Source: a virus. Taken from it: DNA of 64,000 nucleotides. Numbering within the stretch: the first letter of the stretch is position 1; every line of letters starts with the position of its first letter. A model generated the notes under the pieces. That model did no database searches, was not told where the DNA came from, and worked only from the letters and a program-made list of their open reading frames with translations. The stretch lies in the IMG/VR virus record IMGVR_UViG_3300045988_088194; one strand, written 5' to 3'. Position numbers and translations under genes: made by a program. Shown one piece after another: positions 1 to 35,406 of the stretch.

Positions 1-8
1 ACTCACAC

Positions 9-197
9 TTGAAGATGTGGCAATACTTACAGGAAATGACTCTAAAAAATTATAAGATGAAACAATTTGAATCACGCTCATTACCAACAGAGGAAGTAAA
101 GTACTCTGTGGAATTCCCTAAAGAGCCTAAATATGCTCTTAGAAGAGGAAGACTCTGTATCTTAATGTGTGTTGTAACAAAGACAAAACATGAATAA
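9..197 (+). CDS. hypothetical protein, probably 5'-truncated by the window edge
   Basis: The frame is open back to nt 3. Stop TAA 195-197 overlaps the next start (ATGAATAA). No motif recognised. Confidence 0.3.
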   Translation: MKMWQYLQEMTLKNYKMKQFESRSLPTEEVKYSVEFPKEPKYALRRGRLCILMCVVTKTKHE

Positions 198-342
198 CAT
201 AGAGCTTCTAGATAACCCTTTTGAAGAGATAACATCAGAAGGGTTAGATTGGGAACCAGAATACAGATGTCCTAATTGTGACAGTATGTATGATGGTTGT
301 TACTGTCAATGCTGTGGATACAATAACAATGGAGGAATGTAA
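190..342 (+). CDS. small Cys-rich zinc-ribbon-like protein (50 aa)
   Basis: Hand-translated ORF below the 60-aa track cutoff: MNNIELLDNPFEEITSEGLDWEPEYRCPNCDSMYDGCYCQCCGYNNNGGM. It has CxxC plus a C-rich tail and is tightly packed between its neighbours. Confidence 0.45.
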   Translation: MNNIELLDNPFEEITSEGLDWEPEYRCPNCDSMYDGCYCQCCGYNNNGGM

Positions 343-343
343 T

Positions 344-1090
344 ATGATGAGATTATGTACAGTAGTATTTCCTGAAAGCAGTTCTTCAAGAACAAAGGAA
401 TACACATTCAAAATTCCAAAGATGCTCTATGTAAGAGAAGGAGACATACTAAGAAACATAAATTATGGAGATGCTCCTATGAAAGTGATGAGAGTATTTG
501 ATTATCCTGTAAATAATGTCTACAATGGATATATACTCAAAGAACTACTACCTTTTGAAACTAAGATAGAGTCACCATCAACAAGATTCAACAACAATCA
601 AACAAACAATAATATGGAAAAAAGAAATATCAAAGTCTCTCTTGAAGAGGCAAGGAATTGGTATAATGGCAAAGACCAGACTCTGCATAAGCTGGCTCTT
701 CAGGCATATACTGAAAAGGAACTGAGGGAACCACAGAGCCTCAAGGAGGTTCTTGAAGCTCTTGGAATACAGAGCCTTAATCTGGACATGAAACTGGGTG
801 GAAAGGATGCTTCGAGCACCATGAAACTCTCCAAGGAAATAGGCAATGCACTTGCTCTTCATATGAAACTAGCTTTCACAGCCAAGTATTTCAATGGCAC
901 ATGGAGGCCAGAGATGGACAAAACCAAGTATTTCTTGGCAAGGACTCCCTATTCCTATGATGTTCCTAACAGCACTAAGCTGGATAATGGCTATTATATA
1001 GGTACACATGAAAGAGTGATGTATCCAGGAATAGTATATTTCCAGAAGCAGGAAGATGTCAAAAAGGCATATGAAATGCTGAAGAGATAA
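344..1090 (+). CDS. hypothetical protein
   Basis: Track ORF 278..1090 trimmed to ATG 344, which is preceded by GGAGGAATGT. No motif recognised. Confidence 0.6.
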   Translation: MMRLCTVVFPESSSSRTKEYTFKIPKMLYVREGDILRNINYGDAPMKVMRVFDYPVNNVYNGYILKELLPFETKIESPSTRFNNNQTNNNMEKRNIKVSLEEARNWYNGKDQTLHKLALQAYTEKELREPQSLKEVLEALGIQSLNLDMKLGGKDASSTMKLSKEIGNALALHMKLAFTAKYFNGTWRPEMDKTKYFLARTPYSYDVPNSTKLDNGYYIGTHERVMYPGIVYFQKQEDVKKAYEMLKR

Positions 1091-1093
1091 AAC

Positions 1094-1188
1094 AAAGGGC
1101 TATTGCTGAATAGTGGAGTTACTTCACTGATAATGAAATAAGTTTTTGGGTACTTAATTATACTCCACAAACTGTTGCATAGCCCTTT
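1094..1188 (+). ncRNA. long hairpin carrying the AGTTACTTC element (copy 1, permuted R-X-L form); possibly also the terminator of the upstream gene
   Basis: Outer stem AAAGGGCTAT/ATAGCCCTTT and inner stem GTGGAGT/ACTCCAC. ACTTC lies at 1121-1125, then a 29-nt apical segment, then TAATTAT. A T-run follows. The stems covary with the copy at 7467-7559. Confidence 0.5.
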
Positions 1189-1250
1189 TTATAATACGTT
1201 CATAAAGTTTAATTTGATGTAACAGTTTTAATTGGTGTGACATTGTTCAC

Positions 1251-1284
1251 AGAACTCACACTGCTGTGAAGCACTGTGAGTTCT
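1251..1284 (+). repeat. 10-bp hairpin, possible degenerate L...R copy of the same element
   Basis: AGAACTCACA-14 nt-TGTGAGTTCT followed by TTACTTTG. It shares ACAGAACTC with the L arm at 7531-7539. Confidence 0.3.
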
Positions 1285-1331
1285 TTACTTTGAAAGTATA
1301 TTAGTACTAATCTCAAAAAAAAAGAAAACAA

Positions 1332-1643
1332 ATGAAAGAAAAAGATTTCAAGTCTCTCTCTGTTGATGAACAGAAAGAGAAAATCAATGAGCTTGTTGCC
1401 TCTTGGTGTGGGCAGGATTCACGCAACAGATGTGCAGTAGTCATCCTGGGTGACAGGAAAGATGAAGAGGATGCGGGAAAATCTTCATGTGCCATGTTAG
1501 GTCCAGGAGACCTCATAGCAGTATCCCTTAGAACTGCATTGGACCATGATAAAGACCTTAGGAAGTTTGTAACTTGTGGTCTAATGGGACCTCTTGGAGG
1601 ACTGCTATCTATGTTTAACAACTCAAAAGAAGAGGAGGAATAG
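1332..1643 (+). CDS. hypothetical protein (tandem paralog 1)
   Basis: ORF with an A-rich leader (AAAAAAAAAGAAAACAAATG). It shares the pattern W..(8-10)R.C.V(I/V)...D...(S)C A.(L/I)G...LI..L..A with the next ORF. Confidence 0.6.
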   Translation: MKEKDFKSLSVDEQKEKINELVASWCGQDSRNRCAVVILGDRKDEEDAGKSSCAMLGPGDLIAVSLRTALDHDKDLRKFVTCGLMGPLGGLLSMFNNSKEEEE

Positions 1644-1645
1644 TC

Positions 1646-1927
1646 ATGGAAGAAAGAACACTGACCAAAGGTGAACAGAAGAGAGTAGATGCCTGCCAAA
1701 AGGTAGTTGAATGGGCTTCTGAAAACAAGAAACACAGAGGATGTATAGTCATTGCAACAGATGAGAAATCATCAACATGTGCAGTGATTGGAGAGAGCCA
1801 AGGTCTTATTTCAGCACTTCTGTCAGCCATAAAGAGTACTCCGAATTTTAGAAATATTCTAAGTACTGTGCTGATGCTTGATATGGTCACTGGTGGTTCA
1901 AAGAGTGACACTGACAAGGACAAGTAG
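1646..1927 (+). CDS. hypothetical protein (tandem paralog 2)
   Basis: Starts 3 nt after the previous stop. Similar length and motif order to 1332..1643. Confidence 0.6.
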   Translation: MEERTLTKGEQKRVDACQKVVEWASENKKHRGCIVIATDEKSSTCAVIGESQGLISALLSAIKSTPNFRNILSTVLMLDMVTGGSKSDTDKDK

Positions 1928-1934
1928 TCTGGCA

Positions 1935-2008
1935 GACTCCATAGCATAATTGGTTAATGCACCACCCTTTTAAGGTGGGTTATCTGGGTTCAAGTCCCAG
2001 TGGAGTCA
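1935..2008 (+). tRNA. tRNA-Lys (anticodon TTT)
   Basis: Hand-folded cloverleaf: acceptor GACTCCA/TGGAGTC, D arm GCAT-AATTGGTTA-ATGC, anticodon arm CCACC-CTTTTAA-GGTGG, T arm CTGGG-TTCAAGT-CCCAG, discriminator A. Confidence 0.9.
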
Positions 2009-2117
2009 CTATTTAACCAAAAAAAAAACAATGTCATGTAACAAAAAAAAAAGAAGGGATTTCTCAAGGAGAAAAGCCCTTCACAGTAGTATCAACATTT
2101 AACAAGGAGGTGCTGAA

Positions 2118-2348
2118 ATGAACAATAAAGTCATAAACATCACCTATGTAGTAAGATGTGGGTGTGGTTCCACTGATGAAGCTAAATATCATGCAATAGT
2201 CCCTGAAGACTATCATGATGTAGAAGATGGTGACATTATTAACTTTGACAAGATGGAAGCACTGGAAAAAGTAGCAGGGGAAATATACTGTGATGAGTAT
2301 AGAGGTTCTGTGAAAGACCATAATCCTAATGATTACTATGTCTGGTGA
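2118..2348 (+). CDS. hypothetical protein
   Basis: ORF preceded by AAGGAGGTGCTGAA. No motif recognised. Confidence 0.55.
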   Translation: MNNKVINITYVVRCGCGSTDEAKYHAIVPEDYHDVEDGDIINFDKMEALEKVAGEIYCDEYRGSVKDHNPNDYYVW

Positions 2349-2727
2349 TTGGACTTATATACTGGCTGTAGCATTGTGTGCAGCCAGTATATCCTATACA
2401 ATAAGTGTTACAAGTATATTTGAATGGCTCAGAAATCTTATAGAAGACCACATAGGTGGAAAGATAGAAGAACTCATTCACTGTCCTTATTGTCTGGGTC
2501 ACTATGTAGTGCTGGTGATTATGTTCACCACAAAAGGTCTGAGATACCATCTTATGCCAATATCAGGAAATATAGTATATGATTTCCTGTTTACTTGGTT
2601 CTGCATAGTATGTGTACTCTCACTACTTCATTATTTTATGAACCTTGCTTATAAACCAATAGCAGAGAATGAAGGTTTAAGAGCAAGACTTAAGGCGCAA
2701 AAACAAAGAAAAGATAAACAATTATGA
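2329..2727 (+). CDS. hypothetical membrane protein
   Basis: Three or four hydrophobic segments and a basic C-terminal tail. The start may be ATG 2338. Confidence 0.55.
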   Translation: MITMSGDWTYILAVALCAASISYTISVTSIFEWLRNLIEDHIGGKIEELIHCPYCLGHYVVLVIMFTTKGLRYHLMPISGNIVYDFLFTWFCIVCVLSLLHYFMNLAYKPIAENEGLRARLKAQKQRKDKQL

Positions 2728-2990
2728 GGTGGACAACAAAAGAAGATAGACTTATTGCTGAAGCATTAGTCAGAAGTCATAATGAAAAAACTGTAGCTTT
2801 TCAGGATGTAGCAAATGTACTGGGTATTTCCAGAAAGGCTGTTGAAGGCAGGTATTACAGAAAATTTCCTGACCTGGACTTATTAGCAAAAGATATTCTT
2901 GAAGAGATAGCATACAAGAACTATAAGGCTCATAAGCCTTGGTATGTAAAACTCTGGAATGCTGTTAAAAGCATGTTGAACTTAAAGTAG
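2724..2990 (+). CDS. Myb/SANT-like DNA-binding protein (putative)
   Basis: N-terminal W-T-x-x-E-D...L pattern (RWTTKEDRLIAEAL) followed by a helix-turn-helix-like ISRKAVEGRYYR. Confidence 0.45.
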   Translation: MRWTTKEDRLIAEALVRSHNEKTVAFQDVANVLGISRKAVEGRYYRKFPDLDLLAKDILEEIAYKNYKAHKPWYVKLWNAVKSMLNLK

Positions 2991-2998
2991 AGATTATC

Positions 2999-3406
2999 AT
3001 GAGCTATTGGTCATTTACACTCAGTGTGCTGCTATGGGTGGGATTTGGTATAGTCTGTAGGGCATGCCTCCCACCTTTTGAGAAGGGAGCAGATAAACTG
3101 CTTAAAACCATGAGTTGGGCCCTCACTATAGCCACACTTGGTCTATGTGTGCTTGTTTCTTACGCAAGCATAGAGACAAACATAAACAAGGCTATTATAG
3201 ATTATGACAGAGGCAAGTACAAAGTAGAACTTAAAGTCAGTGTAGACACTGTTAGAACTATCAAATGCCCAAAGTTGTACAAACATACTGTCCCATATGT
3301 GACAGAACCACAGCCCATGAGATTTATACCACTAATAACTTGGGAGAAAGAGCAGGAATTACAAGATTCCTTACTGCCTTATTCACAGTTGGACTCTCTG
3401 AAATAG
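2999..3406 (+). CDS. hypothetical membrane protein
   Basis: Two N-terminal hydrophobic helices. The 3' third overlaps 3265..3492 in another frame. Confidence 0.45.
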   Translation: MSYWSFTLSVLLWVGFGIVCRACLPPFEKGADKLLKTMSWALTIATLGLCVLVSYASIETNINKAIIDYDRGKYKVELKVSVDTVRTIKCPKLYKHTVPYVTEPQPMRFIPLITWEKEQELQDSLLPYSQLDSLK

Positions 3407-3492
3407 ATGGATACAGGGTATGTGAATGTCTGAATTGTGGTAAGAAAAGACCCATTAGTGGGGACAATGAAAATTTAAGGTTTGGTATGTAA
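3265..3492 (+). CDS. zinc-ribbon protein (putative)
   Basis: CPIC...(40 aa)...CLNCG four-Cys pattern. Overlaps the previous ORF by 142 nt. Confidence 0.45.
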   Translation: MPKVVQTYCPICDRTTAHEIYTTNNLGERAGITRFLTALFTVGLSEIDGYRVCECLNCGKKRPISGDNENLRFGM

Positions 3493-3496
3493 AATT

Positions 3497-3529
3497 ATTT
3501 GGTAACATCAATTATTTTACTTACCTTTG
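3497..3529 (+). promoter_or_regulatory. Bacteroidota-type promoter (-33 TTTG / -7 TAnnTTTG)
   Basis: TTTG at 3497-3500, a 21-nt spacer, then TACCTTTG at 3522-3529, 27 nt upstream of ATG 3556. Confidence 0.5.
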
Positions 3530-3555
3530 TTAAACAATTAAAACATTAGTTTACT

Positions 3556-4965
3556 ATGTCTAAGTTGAATCCAACCATTAAGCCAACATCTAAATTTACA
3601 GATGAAAGACTTGCTGGAGGTAGTGGTGCTCTTGCTGCTAAGCAGTCAAACATTGCTCTCCTTAAAAGACTCACCTTGGCTAATCTTCTTTGGGAAGATG
3701 CTGCCTATTGTGATGGCAAGAAGATTGCTGAAGAGATTGAAAGGCTCATACCTCTGTGTAGTGCAGAAGATGTATATACTGTTGCTTTGGCAGCAAGAAC
3801 TCTACAGAAACTCAGGCACACACCTTTGTTTCTGGCATCTGAAATGTGCAAATACCCTGAACACAGGCTATTTGTAAGAGACTTACTGCCAAAGATTATA
3901 ACAAGGGCAGATATGCTGACTGACTTCCTCTCTATATACTGGAAAGAAGAAAAGAAGCCACTGGCTAATCAGGCAAAGAAAGGACTTGCAGCAGCATTTC
4001 ATAACTTCAATGCTTATAAGTTTGCAAAGTATGACAGAGATGCTGCAATAAAACTCAGAGATGTAATGTTTCTTGTTCACCCAAGACCTTGTGATGAAAA
4101 GGAAGCAGAACTCTTCAAGATGATTGCTTCAAGAACTCTTCCTGTACCTGAAACTTGGGAAACAATGCTCTCTGCTGGTAAAGATAAAAAAGAAACCTGG
4201 ACTAAACTTATCACTGAAGATAAGATTGGAGGTTTAGCTTTCTTGAGAAATCTTAAAAACATGAGGGAAGCTGGTGTAGACAAGAAAGTAATAAAATATG
4301 GCTTTGAAAGTCTTAAGGCTTCAATGCTGTTGCCTATGAATTTCTTGCAAGCAGCCAGAATGAATCCTGAGTTTGAGAGGGATATAGAAGATGCTATGAT
4401 AACTTCATGGTCCAATCTTCCTAAAATCCCTGGTAGGACTCTGTTCATACTTGATGCTTCTGGTTCTATGGAGTGGGCTGAAATCTCAAAAAAGTCCAAA
4501 CTCACAAGGTTTGATGCTGCAAAGGCTATGGCTATGCTTGCTGCAAACCAGTGTGAAGACTTTGAGTTGGTGGTAACTGCTGGTGATGACTATGCCAGAA
4601 AGCATAAATCAGAAGTAATCAAATATCCTTCAAAGGGATTCAACCTTCTAAAGCAGATAGATGAAGCAAAGAAGAGGGTTGGAGGTGGAGGAATCTTCAC
4701 AAGACAATGTCTTGAGTGGTCAAGAGAACAGTTTACTGGAGAGTTTGACAGAATAATCATATTCTCAGACTCACAGGACTGTGACTACCCTGAGAAGAGA
4801 GTTCCAAAGCCTTTTGGAAAACACAACTACATCTGTGATGTATCATCTGAACTGCATGGTGTGAACTATAGGGGTGCTTGGGATGCTGAAATAAGTGGCT
4901 TCTCAGAGCATTTCCTAACTTTCATAGCAGCATATGAAGGTATTGAGAATACTTTTAATGAATGA
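3556..4965 (+). CDS. TROVE (Ro60/Rsr-like) domain protein with C-terminal vWA domain
   Basis: N-terminal AGGSGA...LFLASE...ITRADMLTDF...AYKFAKYDRDAAIKLRDVMFLVHPRP matches the TROVE pattern (..yqlaKY...lRDvlrl.HPkP). The C-terminus has a vWA MIDAS motif, LFILDASGSM, then VVTAGDD and IIIFSDSQD. Confidence 0.75.
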   Translation: MSKLNPTIKPTSKFTDERLAGGSGALAAKQSNIALLKRLTLANLLWEDAAYCDGKKIAEEIERLIPLCSAEDVYTVALAARTLQKLRHTPLFLASEMCKYPEHRLFVRDLLPKIITRADMLTDFLSIYWKEEKKPLANQAKKGLAAAFHNFNAYKFAKYDRDAAIKLRDVMFLVHPRPCDEKEAELFKMIASRTLPVPETWETMLSAGKDKKETWTKLITEDKIGGLAFLRNLKNMREAGVDKKVIKYGFESLKASMLLPMNFLQAARMNPEFERDIEDAMITSWSNLPKIPGRTLFILDASGSMEWAEISKKSKLTRFDAAKAMAMLAANQCEDFELVVTAGDDYARKHKSEVIKYPSKGFNLLKQIDEAKKRVGGGGIFTRQCLEWSREQFTGEFDRIIIFSDSQDCDYPEKRVPKPFGKHNYICDVSSELHGVNYRGAWDAEISGFSEHFLTFIAAYEGIENTFNE

Positions 4966-5207
4966 GACAGACAATAGGAAACATTCAGGGATATGATGTA
5001 ATCTATGTCCCTGAGAAAAGAATCCTATTCTGTAAGAACACTGCTGTTCCTTATGACCTTCTTAAGGAGGCTGTCTATGGTGACATGGACAGGTATGACA
5101 TACCTCAAAAGAATCTGGTCATAAGGAAGAGTGGTGAAATTATAGAGTTTGGATGCTTGACAACAACTATAGAAAAGGCCAAGAGCATATTGGCAAGTGT
5201 TTATTAA
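4962..5207 (+). CDS. hypothetical protein
   Basis: ORF overlapping the upstream stop by 4 nt (ATGA). No motif recognised. Confidence 0.5.
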   Translation: MRQTIGNIQGYDVIYVPEKRILFCKNTAVPYDLLKEAVYGDMDRYDIPQKNLVIRKSGEIIEFGCLTTTIEKAKSILASVY

Positions 5208-5219
5208 GAAAAAAAAACA

Positions 5220-6608
5220 ATGGAACAAACAATTATCCAGAGCACAAAGGATGTGCTTAAGAAGAAAGTAAACTTCTTTGAACAGCAACAGAAAGAGCGT
5301 ATTATCACAGCCTGTAAGTCAGACATGAAGTATGCAGAAGTTCTGGCATTCATCAAAAATGAGATAGAAATGTCTGAACAGGATGTATCACTAAACTACA
5401 ACATCAAATGTTGGAAGACTGATGGTGCATTCCAGTTTAACAAGGCTGTTGAAGAGATATTTGGCTCAGTAAAGGCTGAGAAAGATGCAGGTCCTTCAGG
5501 CTCTGGTAATATCAATACTCTTGATGTTGTCCTTGCTGATGGCTCAAGAACAAAAGTACCTTTTGGTAAGATTTCATTGCCTGAACTTGGTGAGAATTCC
5601 TATATAGAGCTGAACTACTCTAATAGTGCTTCAGAACTGGTTATAACAGGAGTATGCAAATCCAAGTATCAGTCCATGATTGATGATATTGTGGACAGGA
5701 CAAGGGAGCTCATTGCTATAAACTCTATCTACAAGAATCAAGCTCTTGAGATAACAGAGAAAGGCAAAGAGCCTAAGAGACTCAATCTCAGCCATATAGA
5801 TGGTCAGTTGATGGTCTTGTCAAAACAGACAGAGTTTGACCTTCAGCCTTTGAGGTCAAGAATCCTGTATCCTGAGAAATGTCTCAAGGCAGGCATTCCC
5901 CTTAAGTATGGATGTCTGTTTGAAGGGAAATATGGTACTGGAAAGACTCTTCTTGCATTTAAACTTGCAAGAGAGGCTACCAAGAACAACTGGACTTTCA
6001 TCTATCTTAAGAATCCTTCTCTTCTTGCAGAGACCTTGAGGATGGTGAAAATCATAGACAGGTCATGCAATGGAGTGATAGTCTTTGTAGAGGACATTGA
6101 CCAGGTTACAAGAGGGGAGAGGGATGCATCTCTTCAGGATATTCTGAACACTCTTGATGGTGGTGATACCAAAGATATGAATGTCATTACTTTGTTCACC
6201 ACCAACCACATAGAACTTATTGAACCTACATTCCTCAGAGGAAAGAGAATTGGTTCAGTGGTTACTATGGACTGTCTTGATAAGGAGACAGCATTGAGGT
6301 TCATCAAAGAGTCCTTCAAAGATGGATATGAGATTGGTGAACTTAAAGAGTCCCTTGACCTCATAGAGGAGATGGAGATAGCACCTGCATTCATGGCAGA
6401 GATAGTTGAATCTATCAAGAGTAAACTTATCTTTGCAGAGACCAACCTTGTAACTGATGATATTCTCAAAGGTGCTGTCAAGGCTTATAACAGACAGGTA
6501 AACCTCTCAAGAAAGAAGGATATGAGCATGACTCCTGAGAAGGAGTTCTACCAGAGTATGCAAACTATAATGGCTGAAGGAATCAAGCAGGTTCTTAGAG
6601 GCAAATAG
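5220..6608 (+). CDS. AAA+ ATPase (classical AAA family)
   Basis: Walker A GKYGTGKTLL, Walker B VIVFVEDIDQV, sensor-1 LFTTNH and a second region of homology, PTFLRGKRIG. Confidence 0.85.
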   Translation: MEQTIIQSTKDVLKKKVNFFEQQQKERIITACKSDMKYAEVLAFIKNEIEMSEQDVSLNYNIKCWKTDGAFQFNKAVEEIFGSVKAEKDAGPSGSGNINTLDVVLADGSRTKVPFGKISLPELGENSYIELNYSNSASELVITGVCKSKYQSMIDDIVDRTRELIAINSIYKNQALEITEKGKEPKRLNLSHIDGQLMVLSKQTEFDLQPLRSRILYPEKCLKAGIPLKYGCLFEGKYGTGKTLLAFKLAREATKNNWTFIYLKNPSLLAETLRMVKIIDRSCNGVIVFVEDIDQVTRGERDASLQDILNTLDGGDTKDMNVITLFTTNHIELIEPTFLRGKRIGSVVTMDCLDKETALRFIKESFKDGYEIGELKESLDLIEEMEIAPAFMAEIVESIKSKLIFAETNLVTDDILKGAVKAYNRQVNLSRKKDMSMTPEKEFYQSMQTIMAEGIKQVLRGK

Positions 6609-6618
6609 GGGGGTTACT

Positions 6619-6888
6619 ATGAAAATACAGGTCAGTCCAAAAGCATCTGAGTGGATATTGAAGCAGCCTTGGCTATCTCAGTTTGTAGATAACTGTGTAG
6701 CAATTAAGACCCCCCCAGATATGATACTTGCCTATCTTCTTGGTACGGAGTCATACAGCACGATTTTTAGTGCTTTCACCTGGAGTAGTACTCCTGAAGG
6801 TGGAGATTTCTGGAGCAAGATTGATGATGAGATATCAGAGGTTAGTGAGGAGGAAAACTGGGATGATATTACCACTATAGAGATATAG
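6619..6888 (+). CDS. hypothetical acidic protein
   Basis: ORF preceded by GGGGGGTTACT. No motif recognised. Confidence 0.5.
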   Translation: MKIQVSPKASEWILKQPWLSQFVDNCVAIKTPPDMILAYLLGTESYSTIFSAFTWSSTPEGGDFWSKIDDEISEVSEEENWDDITTIEI

Positions 6889-6892
6889 TGAA

Positions 6893-6913
6893 AGAGGCAG
6901 CAAGTCTGCCTCT
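6893..6913 (+). other. 8-bp hairpin between the CDS and the tRNA array (terminator or processing stem?)
   Basis: AGAGGCAG-CAAGT-CTGCCTCT. No T-run follows. Confidence 0.35.
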
Positions 6914-6917
6914 ATAT

Positions 6918-7002
6918 GCAGGGATGGCAGAATGGATTATGCACCAGTCTTCTAAACTGGGTTCTGAATGGAACAATGTGAGTTCGAGTCTCACTCCCTG
7001 TA
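6918..7002 (+). tRNA. type-II (long variable arm) tRNA with anticodon TCT; CCA encoded at 7003-7005
   Basis: - Acceptor: GCAGGGA/TCCCTGT (G1-U72).
- D stem: 3 bp, GCA/TGC.
- Anticodon arm: CCAGT-CTTCTAA-ACTGG.
- Variable arm: 17 nt, GTTC-TGAATG-GAAC-AAT.
- T arm: GTGAG-TTCGAGT-CTCAC.
- Discriminator: A73. Confidence 0.7.
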
Positions 7003-7069
7003 CCAAATAAATTCCTTTTTTGGGGGATGAATATGGACAGGTCTGCTGTGAAGTAAACTTGTTCATTAC

Positions 7070-7143
7070 ACTCACATAGCTCAACTGGTCAGAGCAGGAC
7101 TCTTATACAGTCAAGGTTGGGGGTTCAAGTCCCTCTGTGAGTA
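7070..7143 (+). tRNA. tRNA-Ile (anticodon TAT)
   Basis: Acceptor ACTCACA/TGTGAGT, D arm GCTC-AACTGGTCA-GAGC, anticodon arm GGACT-CTTATAC-AGTCA (one G-A mismatch), T arm GGGGG-TTCAAGT-CCCTC. Confidence 0.85.
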
Positions 7144-7223
7144 CTAAAGAAAGAACAGATGGAAAAGTTAAAGGAATATCTTTGGAATGAGTGGAGATAT
7201 AATAATGCTCCTAAATTCCTCAA

Positions 7224-7270
7224 ATACTTTGAAGAGTAGTTTGAAAACCTCACAGATTTGCAGATACTTC
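7224..7270 (+). repeat. degenerate copy of the AGTTACTTC element
   Basis: ATACTTTGAAGAGTAGTTTG...GCAGATACTTC aligns with TTACTTCTGAAGAGATAGTGTT...GAGAGTTACTTC in the tRNA-Met insert. Confidence 0.3.
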
Positions 7271-7321
7271 AGTATACTGCATAATGGAAGGATACAAGAC
7301 CATTTTATAAGACAACATAAA

Positions 7322-7458
7322 GCATTACATAGTGCGGGGTAGAGTTACTTCAGATTAGATAAATGGTTATATCATAAGATTGTGGTTCTTAAATTTGTTG
7401 GTTCGAGTCCAGCATCTGGCTATAAACACTCTATCAATTATTCTTGTAATGCTTTTTT
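7322..7458 (+). ncRNA. long stem structure (permuted R-X-L element, copy 2) enclosing the tRNA-His-like module
   Basis: Outer stem GCATTAC (7322-7328) / GTAATGC (7446-7452) followed by TTTTTT. Inner stem GGTAGAGT (7338-7345) / ACTCTATC (7428-7435). ACTTC lies at 7347-7351 and TATAAAC at 7421-7427. Confidence 0.5.
7349..7421 (+). tRNA. tRNA-His-like (anticodon GTG), atypical acceptor end
   Basis: D arm GATA-AATGGTTA-TATC, anticodon arm TAAGA-TTGTGGT-TCTTA (perfect) and T arm GTTGG-TTCGAGT-CCAGC. The acceptor TTCAGAT/ATCTGGC has a T1-C72 mismatch and a T2-G71 wobble. There is no G-1/C73. Confidence 0.65.
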
Positions 7459-7466
7459 GAAATATA

Positions 7467-7559
7467 GACACTATTGTTGGTATTTAGAGTTACTTCATCC
7501 ATGATTTAAATTATTGCAAATAACTTTTAACAGAACTCTAAAGATTGTTACATAGTGTC
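7467..7559 (+). ncRNA. long hairpin carrying the AGTTACTTC element (copy 3, permuted R-X-L form)
   Basis: Outer stem GACACTAT/ATAGTGTC, a G-U-rich middle helix and a perfect 9-bp inner stem, TTTAGAGTT (7483-7491) / AACTCTAAA (7534-7542). ACTTC lies at 7492-7496, then a 31-nt apical segment, then TAACAG. Confidence 0.5.
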
Positions 7560-7571
7560 TTCAATATAAAC

Positions 7572-7696
7572 TTCCCTGTAGCTCAATTGGTAGAGCATGT
7601 ATAGAACTGTGAAGAATGTTCCCTAATTGTGGTGATGTTTACAGTTACTTCAGATTTGTAATCTCAGGGTTCTTGGTTCAAGTCCAAGCAGGGAAG
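7572..7696 (+). tRNA. tRNA-Thr (anticodon TGT) interrupted by a 52-nt intervening sequence
   Basis: Acceptor TTCCCTG/CAGGGAA, D arm GCTC-AATTGGTA-GAGC and T arm CTTGG-TTCAAGT-CCAAG. Removing 7600-7651 gives the anticodon arm TGAGA-TTTGTAA-TCTCA and a 73-nt canonical tRNA. Confidence 0.75.
7600..7651 (+). other. 52-nt intervening sequence in tRNA-Thr (between positions 28 and 29)
   Basis: TATAG-[AACTGTGAA]-24 nt-[TTTACAGTT]-ACTTC, a 9-bp hairpin. Homologous to 8810-8864. Confidence 0.65.
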
Positions 7697-7741
7697 TTTT
7701 TTAATAGAAACCTTAATACTATTATATATAATAATGGAGGA

Positions 7742-7840
7742 ATGATTATGATTCAGGTTTTTAGGGCACTGGCAGTGGCTTCTTTGGTATTAGCACTGGT
7801 GTTTATTATCTTTATATCGTCTGGCACGGATGATGATTGA
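7742..7840 (+). CDS. small hydrophobic protein (32 aa)
   Basis: Track ORF 7616..7840 trimmed to ATG 7742, which follows GGAGGA. The upstream part of the track ORF overlaps tRNA-Thr. Single TM-like segment. Confidence 0.4.
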   Translation: MIMIQVFRALAVASLVLALVFIIFISSGTDDD

Positions 7841-7889
7841 CTGGGGTGAACCTGTTGAAATTAAATAACTATGAAAACAATTGAAAATC

Positions 7890-8177
7890 ATGACTAACAA
7901 GGAAATTATAAAGTTTTTGAAAGAATATCCATTGGACAGGTATATTATTCTTACAACACTGTTAGAGGATGATACAATTTCAATTGCAGAACTTGTCAAG
8001 CACAAGGAGGACTCCCTTAAGAAAGTAGTAGGGGAAAAGACAGAAGAATTAGCAAATGCATGTGCACTTATTATAAGGTATAAGGATAAAATAAATACCA
8101 ATACCGTTGAAGCTGATGCACAGAATTTTTTAGAGAATTGCAGCTGCACTGCATTTACTGGATATGGCACTAAATAA
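7890..8177 (+). CDS. hypothetical protein
   Basis: The track ORF starts at TTG 7881. The first ATG is at 7890. No motif recognised. Confidence 0.55.
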   Translation: MTNKEIIKFLKEYPLDRYIILTTLLEDDTISIAELVKHKEDSLKKVVGEKTEELANACALIIRYKDKINTNTVEADAQNFLENCSCTAFTGYGTK

Positions 8178-8194
8178 GTGCAGAAAATTATATT

Positions 8195-8371
8195 ATGATG
8201 ACAGTAAAAAATCTTATTGATGAACTTAAAAAGTTTCCTGAAGATGCAGATGTCCTTATGACTGAGTTGAAACATACAAATGGATATCATAGACTCAAGT
8301 ATATTGGAGGAATGAAGGTACAGGACCCTTCAAATGGTTCTGAATCAACCTGTCCAGTTCTTGTGTTTTAG
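8195..8371 (+). CDS. hypothetical protein (58 aa)
   Basis: Hand-translated ORF below the track cutoff: MMTVKNLIDELKKFPEDADVLMTELKHTNGYHRLKYIGGMKVQDPSNGSESTCPVLVF. Confidence 0.5.
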   Translation: MMTVKNLIDELKKFPEDADVLMTELKHTNGYHRLKYIGGMKVQDPSNGSESTCPVLVF

Positions 8372-8377
8372 TGGAAT

Positions 8378-8785
8378 GGGGGTGTTTTGGTTTTGATTAC
8401 ACTCTATTTGGTAGTACCTTATGCAGTAGATGGGCAGTCTACTATAAAAGAGCCCAAAACAATTAAATGCTAACAAAGTTAGAAAATCAGTTAGAAGCCT
8501 TGTAGATTATATTAAATCTGCTATGCAGGCACCAGCAATTTCAGCTTATGCTGTTGCTGCCTAACAAAAGGCTTTAGTATTTGAGCCTTAATCAAGTACT
8601 TGGTGGAAGATGGGTGGATACCCAAATATGACTGCATGGCCTTGTAATTAGCAGAGGAAGAAGGAGTCAAGGGACGGTTTAATGGGACAGATTTCCATCT
8701 ATAGTAATAATCTGTCATCCTAAGCATATAAATAAAGGTATTATTGAAGGTTTGTAAGACACAGGTTCGAGTCCTGTCACCTCCA
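8378..8785 (+). ncRNA. ssrA: tmRNA (transfer-messenger RNA)
   Basis: - 5' end: GGGGGTGTTTTGGTTTTGA.
- 3' end: ACAGG-TTCGAGT-CCTGT-CACCTCC-A.
- Together these form a tRNA-Ala-like acceptor with G3-U70.
- CCTAAGCATATA box near the 3' domain.
- Internal tag frame: GCT ATG CAG GCA CCA GCA ATT TCA GCT TAT GCT GTT GCT GCC TAA (8520-8564), ending ..AYAVAA. Confidence 0.85.
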
Positions 8786-8794
8786 CTAATAAAT

Positions 8795-8922
8795 GGGGAA
8801 GTAGCATAATAAAAAACTCTTAAGCTTTTACTTCTGAAGAGATAGTGTTATTGAGAGTTACTTCAGGTTAATGCATTAGTTTCATAAGCTAAAGATTGTT
8901 TGTTCAAATCAAACCTTCCCCA
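8795..8922 (+). tRNA. tRNA-Met/Ile2-type (anticodon CAT) interrupted by a 55-nt intervening sequence in the D-loop; CCA encoded at 8923-8925
   Basis: Acceptor GGGGAAG/CTTCCCC, D stem GCAT (8804-8807) / ATGC (8871-8874) separated by 63 nt, anticodon arm TTAGT-TTCATAA-GCTAA and T arm GTTTG-TTCAAAT-CAAAC. Confidence 0.75.
8810..8864 (+). other. 55-nt intervening sequence in the tRNA-Met D-loop
   Basis: TAAAA-[AACTCTTAA]-27 nt-[TTGAGAGTT]-ACTTC. Removal leaves the D-loop AAAGGTTA. Boundaries were set by alignment with 7600-7651. Confidence 0.6.
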
Positions 8923-8958
8923 CCATAGAACAAGGCAGTAATAATAATAAGGGTGCTG

Positions 8959-8990
8959 ACCAGGTTCTCAAGGACACTTCAAAATAAGGT
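8959..8990 (+). terminator. rho-independent terminator after the RNA gene array
   Basis: AAGGACAC-loop-GTGTCCTT followed by TTTATTT. Confidence 0.7.
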
Positions 8991-9026
8991 GTCCTTTTTA
9001 TTTGTAAATCATTAAAATCTTATATT

Positions 9027-9410
9027 ATGATAGAGTATAAAGTTATAACTTGGAACTTCAGTACTGACAGAGTAGAGCATTATGATATAATGCCTTATCT
9101 GTACAGAAGACTTGAAGAGAAAAGAAAGAGGAAGCAGATAGCATTGAAAGACCTCACTTTGGAAAGGTTGAAGGAGTTCATTGATACTGAATCAAAGTAT
9201 CAGTTCTGGGCAAGATGCCAGTATGAAGTGATACTTTCTTCATGGCCTCCAAGAGAGAATGGACATAAGCATAAGATGGATGTATATGAACAGATTCATA
9301 TGAATCTTGACAATATAGCCAAACTTATGTATGATGACCTTCAGAAAGGAAAGTCTGCAAGAGCAACTAAGACTAGCAAGCACATAAGAGTTAAAACTTT
9401 AGATAGTTAA
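9027..9410 (+). CDS. hypothetical protein
   Basis: ORF. No motif recognised. Confidence 0.55.
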   Translation: MIEYKVITWNFSTDRVEHYDIMPYLYRRLEEKRKRKQIALKDLTLERLKEFIDTESKYQFWARCQYEVILSSWPPRENGHKHKMDVYEQIHMNLDNIAKLMYDDLQKGKSARATKTSKHIRVKTLDS

Positions 9411-9781
9411 TGAGCAGTCAGCCAAAAATTCTTCTCTCTATACAAGGTATAGAGGGAGGAACCCTAAGACCCATTGGGAAAAAGAGGGTCAATTGGTCCA
9501 TAACCAAAAAGGATTTGGACCCAAAATATCATGGTAAAGATGCATTTAAGCCAATCAGGAAAGGTCATATGGACATTCCTGAGTTTGAGAGTGTATCTTG
9601 CCAGCAGAGCATTAAACTCACACAGGATGCCTATGACTATATGACATCTTCTGAACAGCCTTACTGGTTCAAAGGTCCTTGGAAACTTATGACCAAGAAA
9701 CAGAGACTTGAGGTTCATCTTCAGAGGATATGTGATGATAGGGGAGGCACAAGTTACACCTATTCAATCCTTGAAGATTAA
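9410..9781 (+). CDS. hypothetical protein
   Basis: ORF with a start/stop overlap (TAATG). No motif recognised. Confidence 0.55.
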   Translation: MSSQPKILLSIQGIEGGTLRPIGKKRVNWSITKKDLDPKYHGKDAFKPIRKGHMDIPEFESVSCQQSIKLTQDAYDYMTSSEQPYWFKGPWKLMTKKQRLEVHLQRICDDRGGTSYTYSILED

Positions 9782-11148: not shown

Positions 11149-12306
11149 ATGGAAATAAAGATTGTATTGGGGCTTCTCTTTGGAGATGAAGGTAAGGGTA
11201 ACACAGTTCAGTGGCTCTGCAAGAAAGCCTTGGAAGAAGGTAAAAGACCTTGTGTAGTGCGTTTTTCAGGAGGTCCTCAGGCAGGACATACTGTAAGGCA
11301 TAATGGTATTACACATGTATGTTCTTCCTATGGCTCTGGTGTTCTTCTTGGAGTTCCTACACTGTATGTAGGAGGTCTTATTGACCCTCTATGTATATGG
11401 AATGAGAAGAAATCATTAGAAGAGAAAGGAGTGACGGTACCTCCTATCTATATAGGTGGAGAGGTTCCCCTGATAACTCCTTATGATGTAGCAGACCAAC
11501 TTGAGTGGTCTAAAGACCACCCTAACAGAACTTGTGGAAAGGGAGTAATGTCTGCTGTCTTGAGACAGAAAACCCGTCTAAGAGATAGATGTGCAGAGGC
11601 AGCAGACTTTTCTTCAAAGTCTTTTATTGAATATAAGTTAGAGCATATAAGAAAATTCTATGCTGAAGAAGGAATAACTGCTGACAAAGAGGTTGTCAAA
11701 GATTGGACAAAGGCAGGGTTGAACCTATGTAAGGACTTCTTCAAGTACAATATAGAGGATTTTGATGTTCTTATCTTTGAGGGAACTCAAGGACTTCTGT
11801 TAGATTCTGAATGTGGATTCTATCCTTATGTAACTTCAACTAAGGTAGGGCTCAATGGTGTCCCTAAAGAGTATCTTAAAGGTGCTGAAATATACCTTGT
11901 AACAAGGACTTATCTTACAAGACATGGAGAGATGGGACCACTTGAGAGGCAGTGGTTTGAGGGGAGAGAGAAGGAAGTACCTACTGATAAGTTAGAGACT
12001 AATGTCTTCAATGAACATCAGGGAGAGTTCCTTACTGCAAAGTATTATCCAGAACCTTACAAATATGCTGTACAAAGGCACTGTCTTGACAACATGCAGA
12101 AGAGGTATAACCTCACGATGAATCTTGTAGTTACTCATACTGATGTAGACTATTCTGAAGCTGGTGTATGTTTCCCTAAAGGAGACTGCTCTTTCTTTAT
12201 AAATAGTATATCAGGAACTCTTAAAGAGTTTCTTGTTCTACAGAACATTTATACCTCAGATAATCCTAACTCAAACTTTGAACTGTATGACACAAGAATT
12301 AACTGA
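11149..12306 (+). CDS. adenylosuccinate synthetase family protein (PurA/PurZ-like)
   Basis: N-terminal P-loop LLFGDEGKGNTVQW and the RFSGGPQAGHT motif are PurA-family signatures. At 385 aa it is shorter than typical bacterial PurA. Confidence 0.75.
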   Translation: MEIKIVLGLLFGDEGKGNTVQWLCKKALEEGKRPCVVRFSGGPQAGHTVRHNGITHVCSSYGSGVLLGVPTLYVGGLIDPLCIWNEKKSLEEKGVTVPPIYIGGEVPLITPYDVADQLEWSKDHPNRTCGKGVMSAVLRQKTRLRDRCAEAADFSSKSFIEYKLEHIRKFYAEEGITADKEVVKDWTKAGLNLCKDFFKYNIEDFDVLIFEGTQGLLLDSECGFYPYVTSTKVGLNGVPKEYLKGAEIYLVTRTYLTRHGEMGPLERQWFEGREKEVPTDKLETNVFNEHQGEFLTAKYYPEPYKYAVQRHCLDNMQKRYNLTMNLVVTHTDVDYSEAGVCFPKGDCSFFINSISGTLKEFLVLQNIYTSDNPNSNFELYDTRIN

Positions 12307-26760: not shown

Positions 26761-27182
26761 ATAACAAAATGTTAATTATAGTAGACCATGAGAAGAAGAT
26801 AGTATATCCTTGTGACCTTAAGACTTCTTTCAAACCTGAATGGAGATTCTACAAGTCCTTCATGGAATGGGGATATTGGATTCAAGCCCAACTGTACTGG
26901 TATCTTATCAGGCAGACTATGGATAAAGATGAATACTTCAAGGACTTCAAACTGGCAGATTACAGGTTTATTGTCATAAGTAACAGGACAAGAAAACCTC
27001 TTGTGTGGGAATTTCCACAGACTCAGGCTATTACTGACCTTAAACTTGGGGAACATAAACTCAGGAACTGGAGAGGTATAGCAAAAGAACTTTATACTTA
27101 CCTTATCAAGGACTATGAAGTTCCAGTGGATATTAACATGAATTTAATCAACAATATAAGCAAGTGGTTGGAGAATGAATGA
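26761..27182 (+). CDS. PD-(D/E)XK (RecB/Cas4-like) exonuclease, exon 2
   Basis: IIVDHEKKIVYPCDLKTS...WIQAQLYWY matches D-x(n)-(D/E)xK plus the QxxxY motif. It is in frame with exon 1 when T25671 is joined to A26761 (..MAD-Y-NKMLIIVD..). Confidence 0.7.
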
Positions 27183-35167: not shown

Positions 35168-35406
35168 GTTTAGGAGGATACCCATTGGGAGCTGACCAGG
35201 ACCCAAGAGCTCCCTGGAAAGAAAAAGATGTCTTTGTAGATGCTACAGTAAGTATCACATATCATAAGACTATAAGGGTCAAACTTAATGAGCATTATGA
35301 TACTCCTGACCTCTACAATGCTGCACAGGATGAGGTCTATGATGATGTAAAAGCACTTTCTGACAATGGCTGGTATGAGGATGAATTTGAAGTGGTAGAA
35401 GAGTAA
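35164..35406 (+). CDS. hypothetical acidic protein (positional candidate HicA partner)
   Basis: Overlaps the hicA-like stop. No HicB motif recognised. Confidence 0.4.
   Translation: MSLGGYPLGADQDPRAPWKEKDVFVDATVSITYHKTIRVKLNEHYDTPDLYNAAQDEVYDDVKALSDNGWYEDEFEVVEE

What the first reader, a model, noticed from the sequence alone, without database searches (positions are those of the whole stretch)
7224..7559. The same bipartite element occurs permuted (R-X-L) inside long covarying stems, with the topology of a permuted intron-exon or a Y-RNA-like scaffold
**The two halves**
- The 3' half (R) is ..(C)TA(T)TG..GAGTT-ACTTC.
- The 5' half (L) is TAnnn(n)-AACTCTnA..

**Where the permuted order R-X-L is found**
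- At 7467-7559, R at 7483-7491 pairs perfectly with L at 7534-7542 around a 31-nt X.
- At 7322-7458, X is the tRNA-His-like module.
- At 1094-1188, X is 29 nt.
- A degenerate copy lies at 7224-7270.

**Supporting structure**
- Each permuted copy is further enclosed by an outer stem that differs in sequence but keeps its pairing: GGGCTAT/ATAGCCC, GACACTAT/ATAGTGTC and GCATTAC/GTAATGC.
- The inner helices also covary: GTGGAGT/ACTCCAC versus TTAGAGTT/AACTCTAA.

**Possible meanings (inference)**
- If the L:R helix is a cleavage and ligation signal, R-X-L would excise or circularise X.
- Alternatively these are Y-RNA-like scaffolds for the TROVE protein encoded about 3 kb upstream.

I cannot decide between these from the sequence alone.
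Basis: partly seen in the sequence, partly recalled or inferred. Interest (0 to 1): 0.8.

Follow-up and report, generated by a model that had tools for sequence, protein, structure and literature searches.

The report
Phage Y RNAs for Ro60 protein
The three "permuted" stem elements are small non-coding Y RNAs that most likely bind the Ro60 (TROVE) protein encoded next to them in this crAss-like gut phage; this kind of RNA is already known, but here the same binding arm is also grafted into transfer RNAs.

Summary
**Observation.** Three R-X-L elements are real: 1094-1188, 7322-7458 and 7467-7559. The "degenerate copy" at 7224-7270 is not supported.

**Homology.**
- A covariance model built only from elements beside TROVE genes of distant phages finds exactly these three in the 64 kb window.
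- It finds 89 matches in 44 sources, all on the TROVE strand; 58 lie within 500 nt of the gene.
- All 17 base pairs covary (95% paired, against 40-46% when the partners are slid).

**Identity.**
- The conserved core is U-GG-YGAA / 9-bp helix / UUACUUC ... UUGUU-CC. It resembles the GNCGAA and YUAY motifs of bacterial Y RNAs.
- Long relatives hit Rfam YrlA below its threshold.
- The closest solved protein, phage phiLo Ro60, binds such RNAs.
- So these are Y RNAs for the phage Ro60: new members of a known kind.

**Rival reading.** The cleavage-ligation idea is not supported:
- the stems are conserved while X drifts;
- no bulge-helix-bulge motif is present;
- no splicing endonuclease was found.

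It is not excluded, because an RNA-ligase-like gene exists.

**Unusual part.** In Crassvirales relatives, including cultured crAss001, the same arm, capped by a loop, sits inside otherwise canonical tRNAs. That layout is a circular permutation of YrlA.

The parts
1094..1188 (+). Y RNA-like element A. A long hairpin with no tRNA-like module (YrlB/Yrn2-like). It has an outer stem, a bulged U, GC/GC pairs, an internal loop (UGAAUA / AAACUGUU), the inner helix and UACUUC. A T-run follows.
   Evidence: R1 hit 1098-1184, 33.5 bits. Fold z = -3.2. Orthologues in L001-L004 keep R and L at 89-100% identity while X changes length from 19 to 36 nt.
3556..4965 (+). Ro60/TROVE + vWA protein gene, the presumed protein partner.
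   Evidence: Pfam TROVE 7e-14 plus Ro60 vWA. phrog_850 'RNA-binding protein' 8.5e-35 over the full length. Best PDB sequence match is Thermus phage phiLo Ro60, 9KOP/9L5Y, E 3.4e-15, residues 23-460.
7322..7458 (+). Y RNA-like element B. The Ro-type stem encloses a normal-order tRNA-like module at 7349-7421, a D. radiodurans Yrn1-like topology. A T-run follows.
   Evidence: R1 hit 7324-7450, 41.5 bits. tRNA 47.6 bits; ARAGORN His(gtg). There is no G-1:C73 and the first acceptor pair is U.C. Orthologues L013:4229-4363 and L015:5435-5569 carry a different anticodon loop.
7467..7559 (+). Y RNA-like element C. A long hairpin with no tRNA-like module.
   Evidence: R1 hit 7472-7557, 21.7 bits. The 9-bp inner helix 7483-7491 / 7534-7542 is a perfect reverse complement. 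X diverges among orthologues.
7571..7697 (+). tRNA-Thr(UGU)-like RNA. It carries the same Ro-type arm, capped by a loop (L-loop-R, 7600-7651), inserted between anticodon-stem positions 28 and 29.
   Evidence: R2 hit 7600-7651, 57 bits. Deleting 7600-7651 gives a canonical tRNA-Thr by ARAGORN defaults; the intact sequence is not called.
8795..8925 (+). tRNA-Met(CAU)-like RNA with the capped Ro-type arm (8810-8864) inserted in the D loop. CCA is encoded at 8923-8925.
   Evidence: R2 hit 8810-8864, 53.5 bits. Deleting the insert gives tRNA-Met by ARAGORN defaults.
7224..7270 (+). It is not a copy of the element.
   Evidence: No R1 match even with filters off. Fold z = 0.17.

Best explanation
The three R-X-L elements are genes for Y RNA-type non-coding RNAs.

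**Anatomy.** Each folds into a long stem closed by its own 5' and 3' ends. The stem has four parts:
- a variable outer helix;
- a bulged U followed by two G-C pairs;
- a conserved asymmetric internal loop (5' YGAA, 3' R-N-U-U-G-U-U);
- a 9-bp inner helix that ends at a conserved UUACUUC.

**Binding (inferred).** This stem is the binding site for the phage's own Ro60 (TROVE) protein, encoded 2.4 kb away on the same strand.

**The variable part X.** X is the effector or cargo module. It is a small loop in A and C, as in YrlB/Yrn2-type Y RNAs. It is a tRNA-like domain in B, as in Yrn1/YrlA-type Y RNAs.

**Function (by analogy).** With bacterial RYPER and phage phiLo as models, the RNA would tether or gate Ro60. 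It would link Ro60 to a host RNA-handling enzyme such as PNPase, or to a tRNA-binding factor, early in infection.

**Shown here:** homology, structure, strand, and linkage to TROVE.

**Inferred:** binding to Ro60, the effector, and the biological role.
For: **1. Homology.** Model R1, built only from 15 short elements next to TROVE genes of 36-58% identity, hits exactly A, B and C in 64 kb.

**2. Linkage to TROVE**
- 89 R1 hits in 36 of 44 sources, all on the TROVE strand; 58 lie within 500 nt of the gene.
- Reverse test: the pattern TGGTGAA-N7-GTTACTTC retrieved 119 viral loci. 44 carry TROVE at a median distance of 218 nt, 43 of them on the same strand.
- Among the first 100 of those loci, 37 of 46 R1-positive loci and 0 of 54 R1-negative loci have TROVE.
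- In bacterial genomes, 25 of 120 motif loci have TROVE, all co-oriented.

**3. RNA structure**
- 95.4% of cells are paired, against 40-46% in slid controls. All 17 pairs show double changes. Covariation score is 0.97 against 0.10-0.18.
- G.U pairs number 70 against 8 A.C, so the structure forms in RNA read from the + strand.

**4. Known motifs**
- The consensus U-RG-Y-G(invariant)-W-A resembles GNCGAAN0-1G; 11 of 82 sequences read GGCGAA.
- UUAC equals the YUAY / UA-kink motif of YrlA.

**5. Rfam YrlA RF02553**
- It matches long relatives over the full model: L029 33.6 bits, E 1.6e-5; L206 37.4 and 40.7 bits.
- The L206 match coincides with an R1 hit.

**6. Protein partner**
- The closest solved protein, phiLo Ro60, binds two phage Y-like RNAs encoded beside it.
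- Phage Y RNAs were reported in 22 phages.

**7. Selection.** It acts on the stem, not on X: R and L are 89-100% identical while X is 60-69% with indels.
Against: - No window copy reaches any Rfam Y RNA or YrlA score, even at E<=10. Relatives stay below the gathering score of 69.
- The GNCGAA-like motif is degenerate in the window copies (UGCUGAA, UAGUGCGG, UUGUUGGUA).
- B's tRNA-like module is in normal order, not T arm / closed acceptor / D arm as in YrlA.
- In this lineage the RNAs lie 2.4 kb from TROVE rather than directly adjacent.
- No expression or binding data could be consulted.
- Alignment A3 was fitted to the model, which inflates the paired fraction somewhat.
Confidence: 0.8

Rival explanations
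1. Processing or splicing signal. The L:R helix with its flanks (UA... / ...UACUUC) directs endonucleolytic cleavage and ligation. In R-X-L it would release or circularise X. In tRNAs (L-loop-R) it would be a protein-dependent intron, whose removal yields functional tRNA-Thr and tRNA-Met.
For: - Deleting the capped module restores canonical tRNAs: Thr-UGU, and Met-CAU with CCA.
- The same holds by eye for Lys, Glu and others in relatives.
- Inserts sit at several sites (28/29, 31/32, D loop), as mobile or archaeal-type introns do.
- Inserts begin with UA and end with UACUUC.
- The phage encodes an RNA-ligase-family protein at 34269-34982 and two metallophosphoesterases.
Against: - There is no 3-4-3 bulge-helix-bulge. 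The junction is a 9-bp helix flanked by 6-10 nt on the 5' side and UACUUC plus 0-2 nt on the 3' side, with variable offsets.
- At 52-55 nt the insert is too small for a group I or II intron, and no Rfam intron or ribozyme hit was found.
- No splicing endonuclease was found in about 40 ORFs.
- The 'intron' carries the same conserved protein-binding loop as the free-standing Y RNAs.
- Distant YrlA-type relatives have the stem leaving the same position of an anticodon-like arm, yet their acceptor is closed, so tRNA-likeness does not imply decoding.
- Orthologous D-loop chimeras have degenerate anticodon loops, such as an 8-nt loop or a mismatched closing pair.
- In R-X-L, X is the least conserved part.
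- No insert-free allele was found in IMG/VR.
Confidence: 0.12
2. The RNAs are Ro60 substrates rather than scaffolds. The stem is a tag that recruits Ro60 to phage tRNA precursors, for folding control, protection from host anticodon nucleases, or repair together with the phage RNA ligase. A and C would be decoys or relics.
For: - B is a tRNA whose leader and trailer form the stem. Two further tRNAs carry the arm.
- An RNA-ligase and phosphoesterase cassette is present in the same genome.
- rsr-Y RNA-rtcB operons respond to tRNA damage in Salmonella (abstract listed).
- TROVE is an early gene in crAss001.
Against: - Stand-alone hairpin forms without any tRNA part are the most common class (63-98 nt) and are conserved across phages and bacteria.
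- Known Ro60 substrates are bound through single-stranded ends in the central cavity, not through a conserved helix.
Confidence: 0.2
3. The elements act at the DNA level or in transcription only. They would be intrinsic terminators, or a repeated palindromic (MITE/REP-like) element that happens to lie near TROVE.
For: A and B are followed by T-runs. The copies lie in intergenic DNA.
Against: - Strict strand bias: 89 of 89 and 47 of 47 hits are on the TROVE strand.
- G.U pairs greatly outnumber A.C.
- Unpaired nucleotides are conserved and some are invariant.
- C has no T-run.
- The terminator scan called none of the copies.
Confidence: 0.03

Closest known systems
YrlA (Rfam RF02553; Chen et al. 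2014, PMC4201824; Wang et al. 2018, bioRxiv 10.1101/312249)
   Same: - Encoded beside and co-oriented with a Ro60 gene.
- 5'/3' stem with a GNCGAA-like 5'-strand motif, followed by YUAY (here UUAC).
- tRNA-like effector domain.
- Long relatives of the window elements match the whole Rfam model.
   Different: - Window copies do not score with the Rfam model.
- The window family has its own conserved core: UGGYGAA ... GUUACUUC ... UUGUUCC.
- A and C lack a tRNA-like domain.
- B has it in normal order, not T arm / closed acceptor / D arm.
YrlB (Salmonella, M. smegmatis) and Yrn2 (D. radiodurans): the second, hairpin-type Y RNAs
   Same: [quoted passage not shown] A and C fit that class and lie in an array with a tRNA-like one.
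   Different: No sequence homology was tested. The loops of A and C are 36-38 nt and are not notably pyrimidine-rich.
D. radiodurans Yrn1
   Same: The Ro-binding stem sits at the acceptor end, with the T arm and an anticodon-like arm in normal tRNA order. This is the same topology as copy B.
   Different: Yrn1 lacks a full D arm and has a 6-nt 'anticodon' loop. B is a nearly complete cloverleaf (47.6 bits).
Thermus phage phiLo Yrl1/Yrl2 with phiRo60 (PMC12135203)
   Same: A phage-encoded Ro60 whose closest PDB relative status applies to the window protein. Two stem-bulge-stem RNAs with a CGAA motif are encoded next to the gene. Binding to phiRo60, and assembly with host PNPase, were shown experimentally.
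   Different: Those RNAs lie upstream of the gene. No tRNA chimeras were reported. RNA sequence relatedness was not tested here.
[quoted passage not shown] 2014)
   Same: A Ro60-bound tRNA-like RNA with free acceptor ends and a CCA tail. This is the nearest precedent for the tRNA chimeras at 7571-7697 and 8795-8925.
   Different: It is a two-piece RNA with an open-ended Ro stem. The phage chimeras are one piece, with the Ro stem capped by a loop and inserted at 28/29, 31/32 or in the D loop.
Archaeal bulge-helix-bulge introns and permuted tRNA genes
   Same: Short inserts at non-canonical tRNA positions. There is a permutation relationship between the two arrangements.
   Different: There is no BHB geometry, no EndA-type endonuclease was found, and the insert carries a conserved protein-binding loop shared with free-standing RNAs.

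Membership tests
Bacterial/phage Y RNA (Ro60-associated ncRNA, criteria of Chen et al. 2014) | Encoded within about 2 kb of a Ro60/TROVE gene, on the same strand | tested here: met
   A lies 2372 nt upstream; B and C lie 2359 and 2507 nt downstream; all on the + strand. In relatives the distance is mostly under 500 nt.
Bacterial/phage Y RNA (Ro60-associated ncRNA, criteria of Chen et al. 2014) | Long stem formed by the 5' and 3' ends, interrupted by a bulge or internal loop, and supported by covariation | tested here: met
   17 of 17 pairs covary on 82 distinct sequences, with 95.4% of cells paired.
Bacterial/phage Y RNA (Ro60-associated ncRNA, criteria of Chen et al. 2014) | GNCGAAN0-1G-type motif on the 5' strand | tested here: inconclusive
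   The family consensus is U-GG-Y-G-A-A, with G invariant and 11 of 82 sequences reading GGCGAA. The window copies read UGCUGAA, UAGUGCGG and UUGUUGGUA.
Bacterial/phage Y RNA (Ro60-associated ncRNA, criteria of Chen et al. 2014) | Binding to Ro60 protein | not testable with these tools
   Needs RIP or EMSA. The only indirect support is that the nearest solved homologue binds such RNAs.
YrlA proper (Rfam RF02553) | Conserved YUAY after the Ro-binding stem | tested here: met
   UUAC is present in A, B and C. U25, A26 and C27 occur in 82, 79 and 82 of 82 sequences.
YrlA proper (Rfam RF02553) | tRNA-like domain ordered T arm / closed acceptor stem-loop / D arm | tested here: not met
   A and C have no tRNA-like part. 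B has the normal tRNA order. The feature is met only in distant relatives such as L029, L032, L036 and L038.
YrlA proper (Rfam RF02553) | Reaches the Rfam gathering score (69 bits) | tested here: not met
   No YrlA hit in window 1-9500 at E<=10. Relatives score 33.6-40.7 bits.
Archaeal-type BHB intron / permuted tRNA processing | Bulge-helix-bulge (3-4-3) at both cleavage sites | tested here: not met
   The junction is a 9-bp helix with 6-10 nt and 6-8 nt single-stranded flanks. The offsets vary between loci.
Archaeal-type BHB intron / permuted tRNA processing | Splicing endonuclease and ligase available | tested here: inconclusive
   No endonuclease was found in about 40 window ORFs. An RNA-ligase-family ORF is present. 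The rest of the roughly 100 kb genome and the host were not examined.
Self-splicing group I/II intron or small ribozyme | Match to a known catalytic core | tested here: not met
   No Rfam hit at gathering threshold or at E<=10 in 1-9500. The inserts are only 52-55 nt.

The most novel reading that the evidence does not exclude
The Ro60-binding arm is a portable RNA module. In Crassvirales-type phages it has been grafted, capped by a loop, into otherwise canonical tRNAs with free acceptor ends, some of them with CCA encoded.

These 'tRNA-Y chimeras' would be single-piece, non-permuted YrlAs. Two functions are conceivable:
- they stay intact and bring Ro60 to tRNA-handling machinery, for example as shields or decoys against host anticodon nucleases, working with the phage RNA ligase;
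- they are a new protein-guided tRNA intron that is removed to give decoding tRNAs.

They would also suggest an origin for YrlA. A read-through across two tandem chimeras, from R of the first to L of the second, gives exactly the YrlA order.
Probability: 0.3. Interest if true: 0.8.

Novelty: new member of a known kind. Interest (0 to 1): 0.5.

Why it matters
**Where the elements are found**
- crAss-like phages are the most abundant phages of the human gut, and their TROVE gene is expressed within minutes of infection.
- No paper in the searched library describes their Y RNAs.
- In the RefSeq record of cultured crAss001, the 900-nt stretch after gp96 that holds them carries no annotation.

**What this makes testable**
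- Recognising the elements as Y RNAs gives the TROVE protein a set of five candidate RNA partners in one phage.
- It supplies a covariance model that finds the family in over 80 viral and bacterial loci that Rfam misses at its threshold.
- It points to a tractable system, crAss001 on Bacteroides intestinalis, for asking what the tRNA-like domain of Y RNAs is for.
- The capped arm inside real-looking tRNAs is an undescribed topology. It bears on how YrlA arose, and on whether phage tRNAs are guarded or processed by Ro60.

Tried and rejected
**Rfam**
- The window at gathering threshold and at E<=10 gave no Y RNA, YrlA, intron or ribozyme hit for the window copies.
- Twelve distant loci and ten bacterial loci at gathering threshold gave only tRNA and tmRNA hits, or nothing.

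**DNA similarity.** blastn of 6900-9000 against GenBank phages matched tRNAs only.

**Alignment.** RNAalifold on a plain MAFFT alignment recovered only the outer stem, because the L halves were out of register. This was solved by a hand-specified structure and a covariance model.

**Exon junctions.** Mapping them with ARAGORN on all cut offsets at a lowered threshold was too permissive to be informative. It was replaced by reading the flanks and by default-threshold runs.

**Insert-free alleles.** The spliced Thr junction found 0 matches, and the 3' exon found only the four close relatives.

**Promoter and terminator scans.** These were uninformative. The scan uses a sigma-70 consensus, and the host is probably Bacteroides.

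**Artefacts and unsupported items**
- The R2 hit at 7422-7496 is an artefact: the L half of B followed by the R half of C.
- The 10-mer at 53956 on the - strand lies inside the 1768-aa ORF 52993-58299 and has no partner half.
- The 'degenerate copy' at 7224-7270 is rejected.

**Literature.** Two reviews (PMC10870794 and PMC6047535) are not held in the library.

Full report
**Setting**

The window is part of a crAss-like phage.
- It encodes Crassvirus cargo and muzzle proteins and a 3507-aa ORF.
- Its first 9 kb is rich in RNA genes. There are four tRNAs called by ARAGORN and Rfam, and a tmRNA.
- A 469-aa TROVE/Ro60 + vWA protein is encoded at 3556-4965 (Pfam TROVE 7e-14; phrog_850 over the full length).
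- Its closest solved relative by sequence is the Ro60 of Thermus phage phiLo (9KOP/9L5Y, E 3.4e-15).

**Checking the observation**

- Copy A: GGGCTAT 1097-1103 / ATAGCCC 1179-1185, and GTGGAGT 1113-1119 / ACTCCAC 1162-1168.
- Copy B: GCATTAC 7322-7328 / GTAATGC 7446-7452, and TAGAGT / ACTCTA. These enclose a tRNA-like module at 7349-7421.
- Copy C: GACACTAT 7468-7475 / ATAGTGTC 7552-7559, and TTTAGAGTT 7483-7491 / AACTCTAAA 7534-7542.

The exact 10-mer AGTTACTTCA occurs five times on the + strand between 1.1 and 8.9 kb. The other two occurrences lie inside interrupted tRNAs (see below).

The 'degenerate copy' at 7224-7270 is not supported. It folds no better than shuffled sequence, and it gives no covariance-model match even with filters off.

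**Relatives**

The TROVE protein retrieved 43 viral loci with 97% down to 36% identity.
- In them the 8-mer GTTACTTC occurs about three times per locus. It is almost always on the TROVE strand and clustered next to the gene.
- A common architecture emerged from the distant loci. It is an outer helix, a bulged U, two G-C pairs, an internal loop (5' YGAA, 3' R-N-UUGUU), a 9-bp helix ending in GU, then UACUUC, a variable X, and the return strands.

**First model (R1)**

I built model R1 from 15 short elements of the distant loci only.
- On the window it finds exactly A, B and C and nothing else, at 33.5, 41.5 and 21.7 bits.
- On the window plus 43 loci it finds 89 matches, all on the TROVE strand, in 36 of 44 sources. 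58 lie within 500 nt of the gene.
- Lengths are bimodal, 63-98 nt and 119-144 nt.

On the 82 distinct sequences, every one of the 17 pairs shows compensatory double changes.
- 95.4% of cells are paired, against 40-46% when the partners are slid.
- The covariation score is 0.97, against 0.10-0.18.
- G.U pairs outnumber A.C 70 to 8, so the structure belongs to RNA read from the + strand.
- One caveat applies: the alignment was fitted to the model.

**Reciprocal test**
- A 15-base pattern from the element (TGGTGAA-N7-GTTACTTC) retrieved 119 viral loci.
- 44 of them encode TROVE, at a median distance of 218 nt, and 43 are co-oriented.
- Among the first 100 loci, 46 are R1-positive and 37 of those have TROVE in the fetched DNA. 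None of the 54 R1-negative (chance) matches has it.
- In bacterial genomes, 25 of 120 motif loci carry TROVE, all co-oriented. They include Bradyrhizobium, Hyphomonadaceae and Acidobacteriota.

**What the elements are**

Several lines point to Y RNAs.
- Bacterial Y RNAs are defined by a stem made from the two ends. The stem carries GNCGAAN0-1G on the 5' strand, followed by a conserved YUAY, and in YrlA by a tRNA-like domain. They are encoded beside and co-oriented with rsr.
- The family consensus here, U-GG-Y-G-A-A, has an invariant G, and 11 of 82 sequences read GGCGAA. UUAC is nearly invariant. Both fit those motifs.
- Long members in distant loci have the full YrlA order: stem, anticodon-like/V arm, T arm, closed acceptor hairpin, D arm, stem.
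- Those long members match Rfam YrlA over the whole model, though below the gathering score. L029 scores 33.6 bits at E 1.6e-5.
- A Bradyrhizobium locus scores 37.4 and 40.7 bits, and one of those matches coincides with an R1 hit.
- Phage Y RNAs beside phage Ro60 genes are established (22 phages in Chen et al. 2014).
- Phage phiLo Yrl1/Yrl2 were shown to bind phiRo60 and to form ternary assemblies with it and host PNPase.

I therefore read the three elements as follows.
- A and C are hairpin-type Y RNAs (YrlB/Yrn2-like).
- B is a Y RNA with a tRNA-like module in normal order, the topology of D. radiodurans Yrn1.

Among the window and its four close relatives, the R and L halves are 89-100% identical. 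X is only 60-69% identical and varies from 19 to 38 nt. Selection therefore acts on the stem, as expected for a protein-binding site.

**The cleavage-ligation alternative**

The same arm also occurs in the order L-loop-R.

A second model, R2, finds 47 such capped arms, all on the TROVE strand, and they covary. Two are in the window.
- Module 7600-7651 lies between positions 28 and 29 of a tRNA-Thr(UGU)-like gene at 7571-7697.
- Module 8810-8864 lies in the D loop of a tRNA-Met(CAU)-like gene at 8795-8925, which has CCA encoded.
- Deleting either insert gives a canonical tRNA by ARAGORN defaults. The intact sequences are not called.

That looks intron-like, and the phage has an RNA-ligase-family ORF (34269-34982) followed by two metallophosphoesterases.

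Several things speak against splicing, however.
- The junction is not a bulge-helix-bulge.
- The 5' linker varies from 6 to 10 nt, and the 3' boundary varies from 0 to 2 nt after UACUUC.
- No splicing endonuclease, intron or ribozyme signature was found.
- The insert keeps the same conserved loop as the free-standing RNAs.
- In distant YrlA-type RNAs the stem leaves the same place, between base pairs 2 and 3 of an anticodon-like arm. Their acceptor is closed, so they cannot decode.
- Some orthologous chimeras have degenerate anticodon loops.
- No insert-free allele was found.

I rate excision as possible but unlikely (about 0.12).

**What is unusual**

YrlA has already been described as a circularly permuted tRNA with a closed acceptor. 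M. smegmatis YrlA is opened by RNase P and receives CCA.

The capped arm inside tRNAs is the single-piece, non-permuted counterpart. Its acceptor ends are free and its Ro stem is closed by a loop. L027 even has a GAAA cap and an encoded CCA.

R2 finds this form in the Crassvirales-type loci and in a small second group (L027, L028, L034). It finds essentially none in 67 other TROVE-positive viral and bacterial loci: one weak hit, with the caveat that the model is AT-biased.

The cultured phage crAss001 has the whole set in a 900-nt unannotated gap after gp96. That set is an R-X-L element and two chimeric tRNAs. Its TROVE gene is early.

I found no description of these RNAs in the searchable literature.

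**Verdict**
- The Y-RNA reading is well supported, and the excision reading is not.
- The R-X-L elements are new members of a known kind.
- The tRNA-embedded capped arm is a new variant that deserves an experiment.

Noticed in passing
window 34269-34982, 35406-35987, 35984-36670: An RNA-ligase-family ORF (PF09414 1.8e-18; phrog_548) is followed by two metallophosphoesterases. This may be an RNA end-healing and sealing (repair) cassette, in the same genome as Ro60 and the Y RNAs.
   Followed up: partly
L163 (Bacteroides phage crAss001, NC_049977) 5811-6715: A 900-nt gap after gp96 (TROVE) has no annotation. It holds an R-X-L element (5908-5989, 43 bits), two tRNAs with capped arms (modules at 6121-6177 and 6363-6418), and probably two more R-X-L elements. 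tRNA finders miss the chimeras.
   Followed up: partly
L007:7779-7836, L010:4791-4848, L011:3030-3087, L022:7791-7848: Orthologous D-loop chimeras differ in the anticodon loop: UGG, an 8-nt loop with CAUG, and UUG with a mismatched closing pair. L013:7707-7762 and L015:8023-8078 differ likewise (GUA against GAU). This indicates either rapid anticodon switching or relaxed constraint.
   Followed up: partly
window 8378-8788: A phage-encoded tmRNA (Rfam 82 bits) with a 31-residue tag ending in AYAVAA. tmRNAs also occur in the relatives L013 and L019, near the TROVE locus.
   Followed up: no
window 6918-7005: A tRNA with anticodon UCU (Arg) has a 16-nt variable arm, which is unusual for a bacterial-type tRNA-Arg.
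   Followed up: no
window 25765-26550: A LAGLIDADG + HTH homing-endonuclease ORF lies just upstream of the anaerobic ribonucleotide reductase gene nrdD (27175-29340). No group I intron was called by Rfam.
   Followed up: no
window 11149-12306: This ORF matches phrog_1211, '2-aminooxy adenylosuccinate synthetase' (1e-41), a PurZ-like enzyme. It hints at modified adenine metabolism.
   Followed up: no
window 20294-22395: Adjacent JAB-like and ThiF-family ORFs, a ubiquitin-like activation/deconjugation pair, lie in the replication module.
   Followed up: no
window 5220-6888: An AAA ATPase (462 aa, phrog_10440) and a small ORF separate TROVE from the RNA array in this lineage only. In crAss001 and most relatives the RNAs start 12-130 nt after the TROVE stop codon.
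   Followed up: partly
L133, L115, L126, L096, L131, L117, L097, L070, L071: These nine viral loci have strong R1 matches but no TROVE gene in the fetched DNA. Several matches lie at the locus edge, so the gene may lie just outside. Some could be orphan Y RNAs.
   Followed up: no
distant loci, e.g. L028:5679-5743, L032:2121-2186, L035:5775-5840, L038:5410-5475: In the shortest elements (63-70 nt) the loop X is itself conserved (UACUUC-UUNGGAUGAAAAC-ACC). This suggests a second recognition site or a small UUC/GAA hairpin.
   Followed up: no
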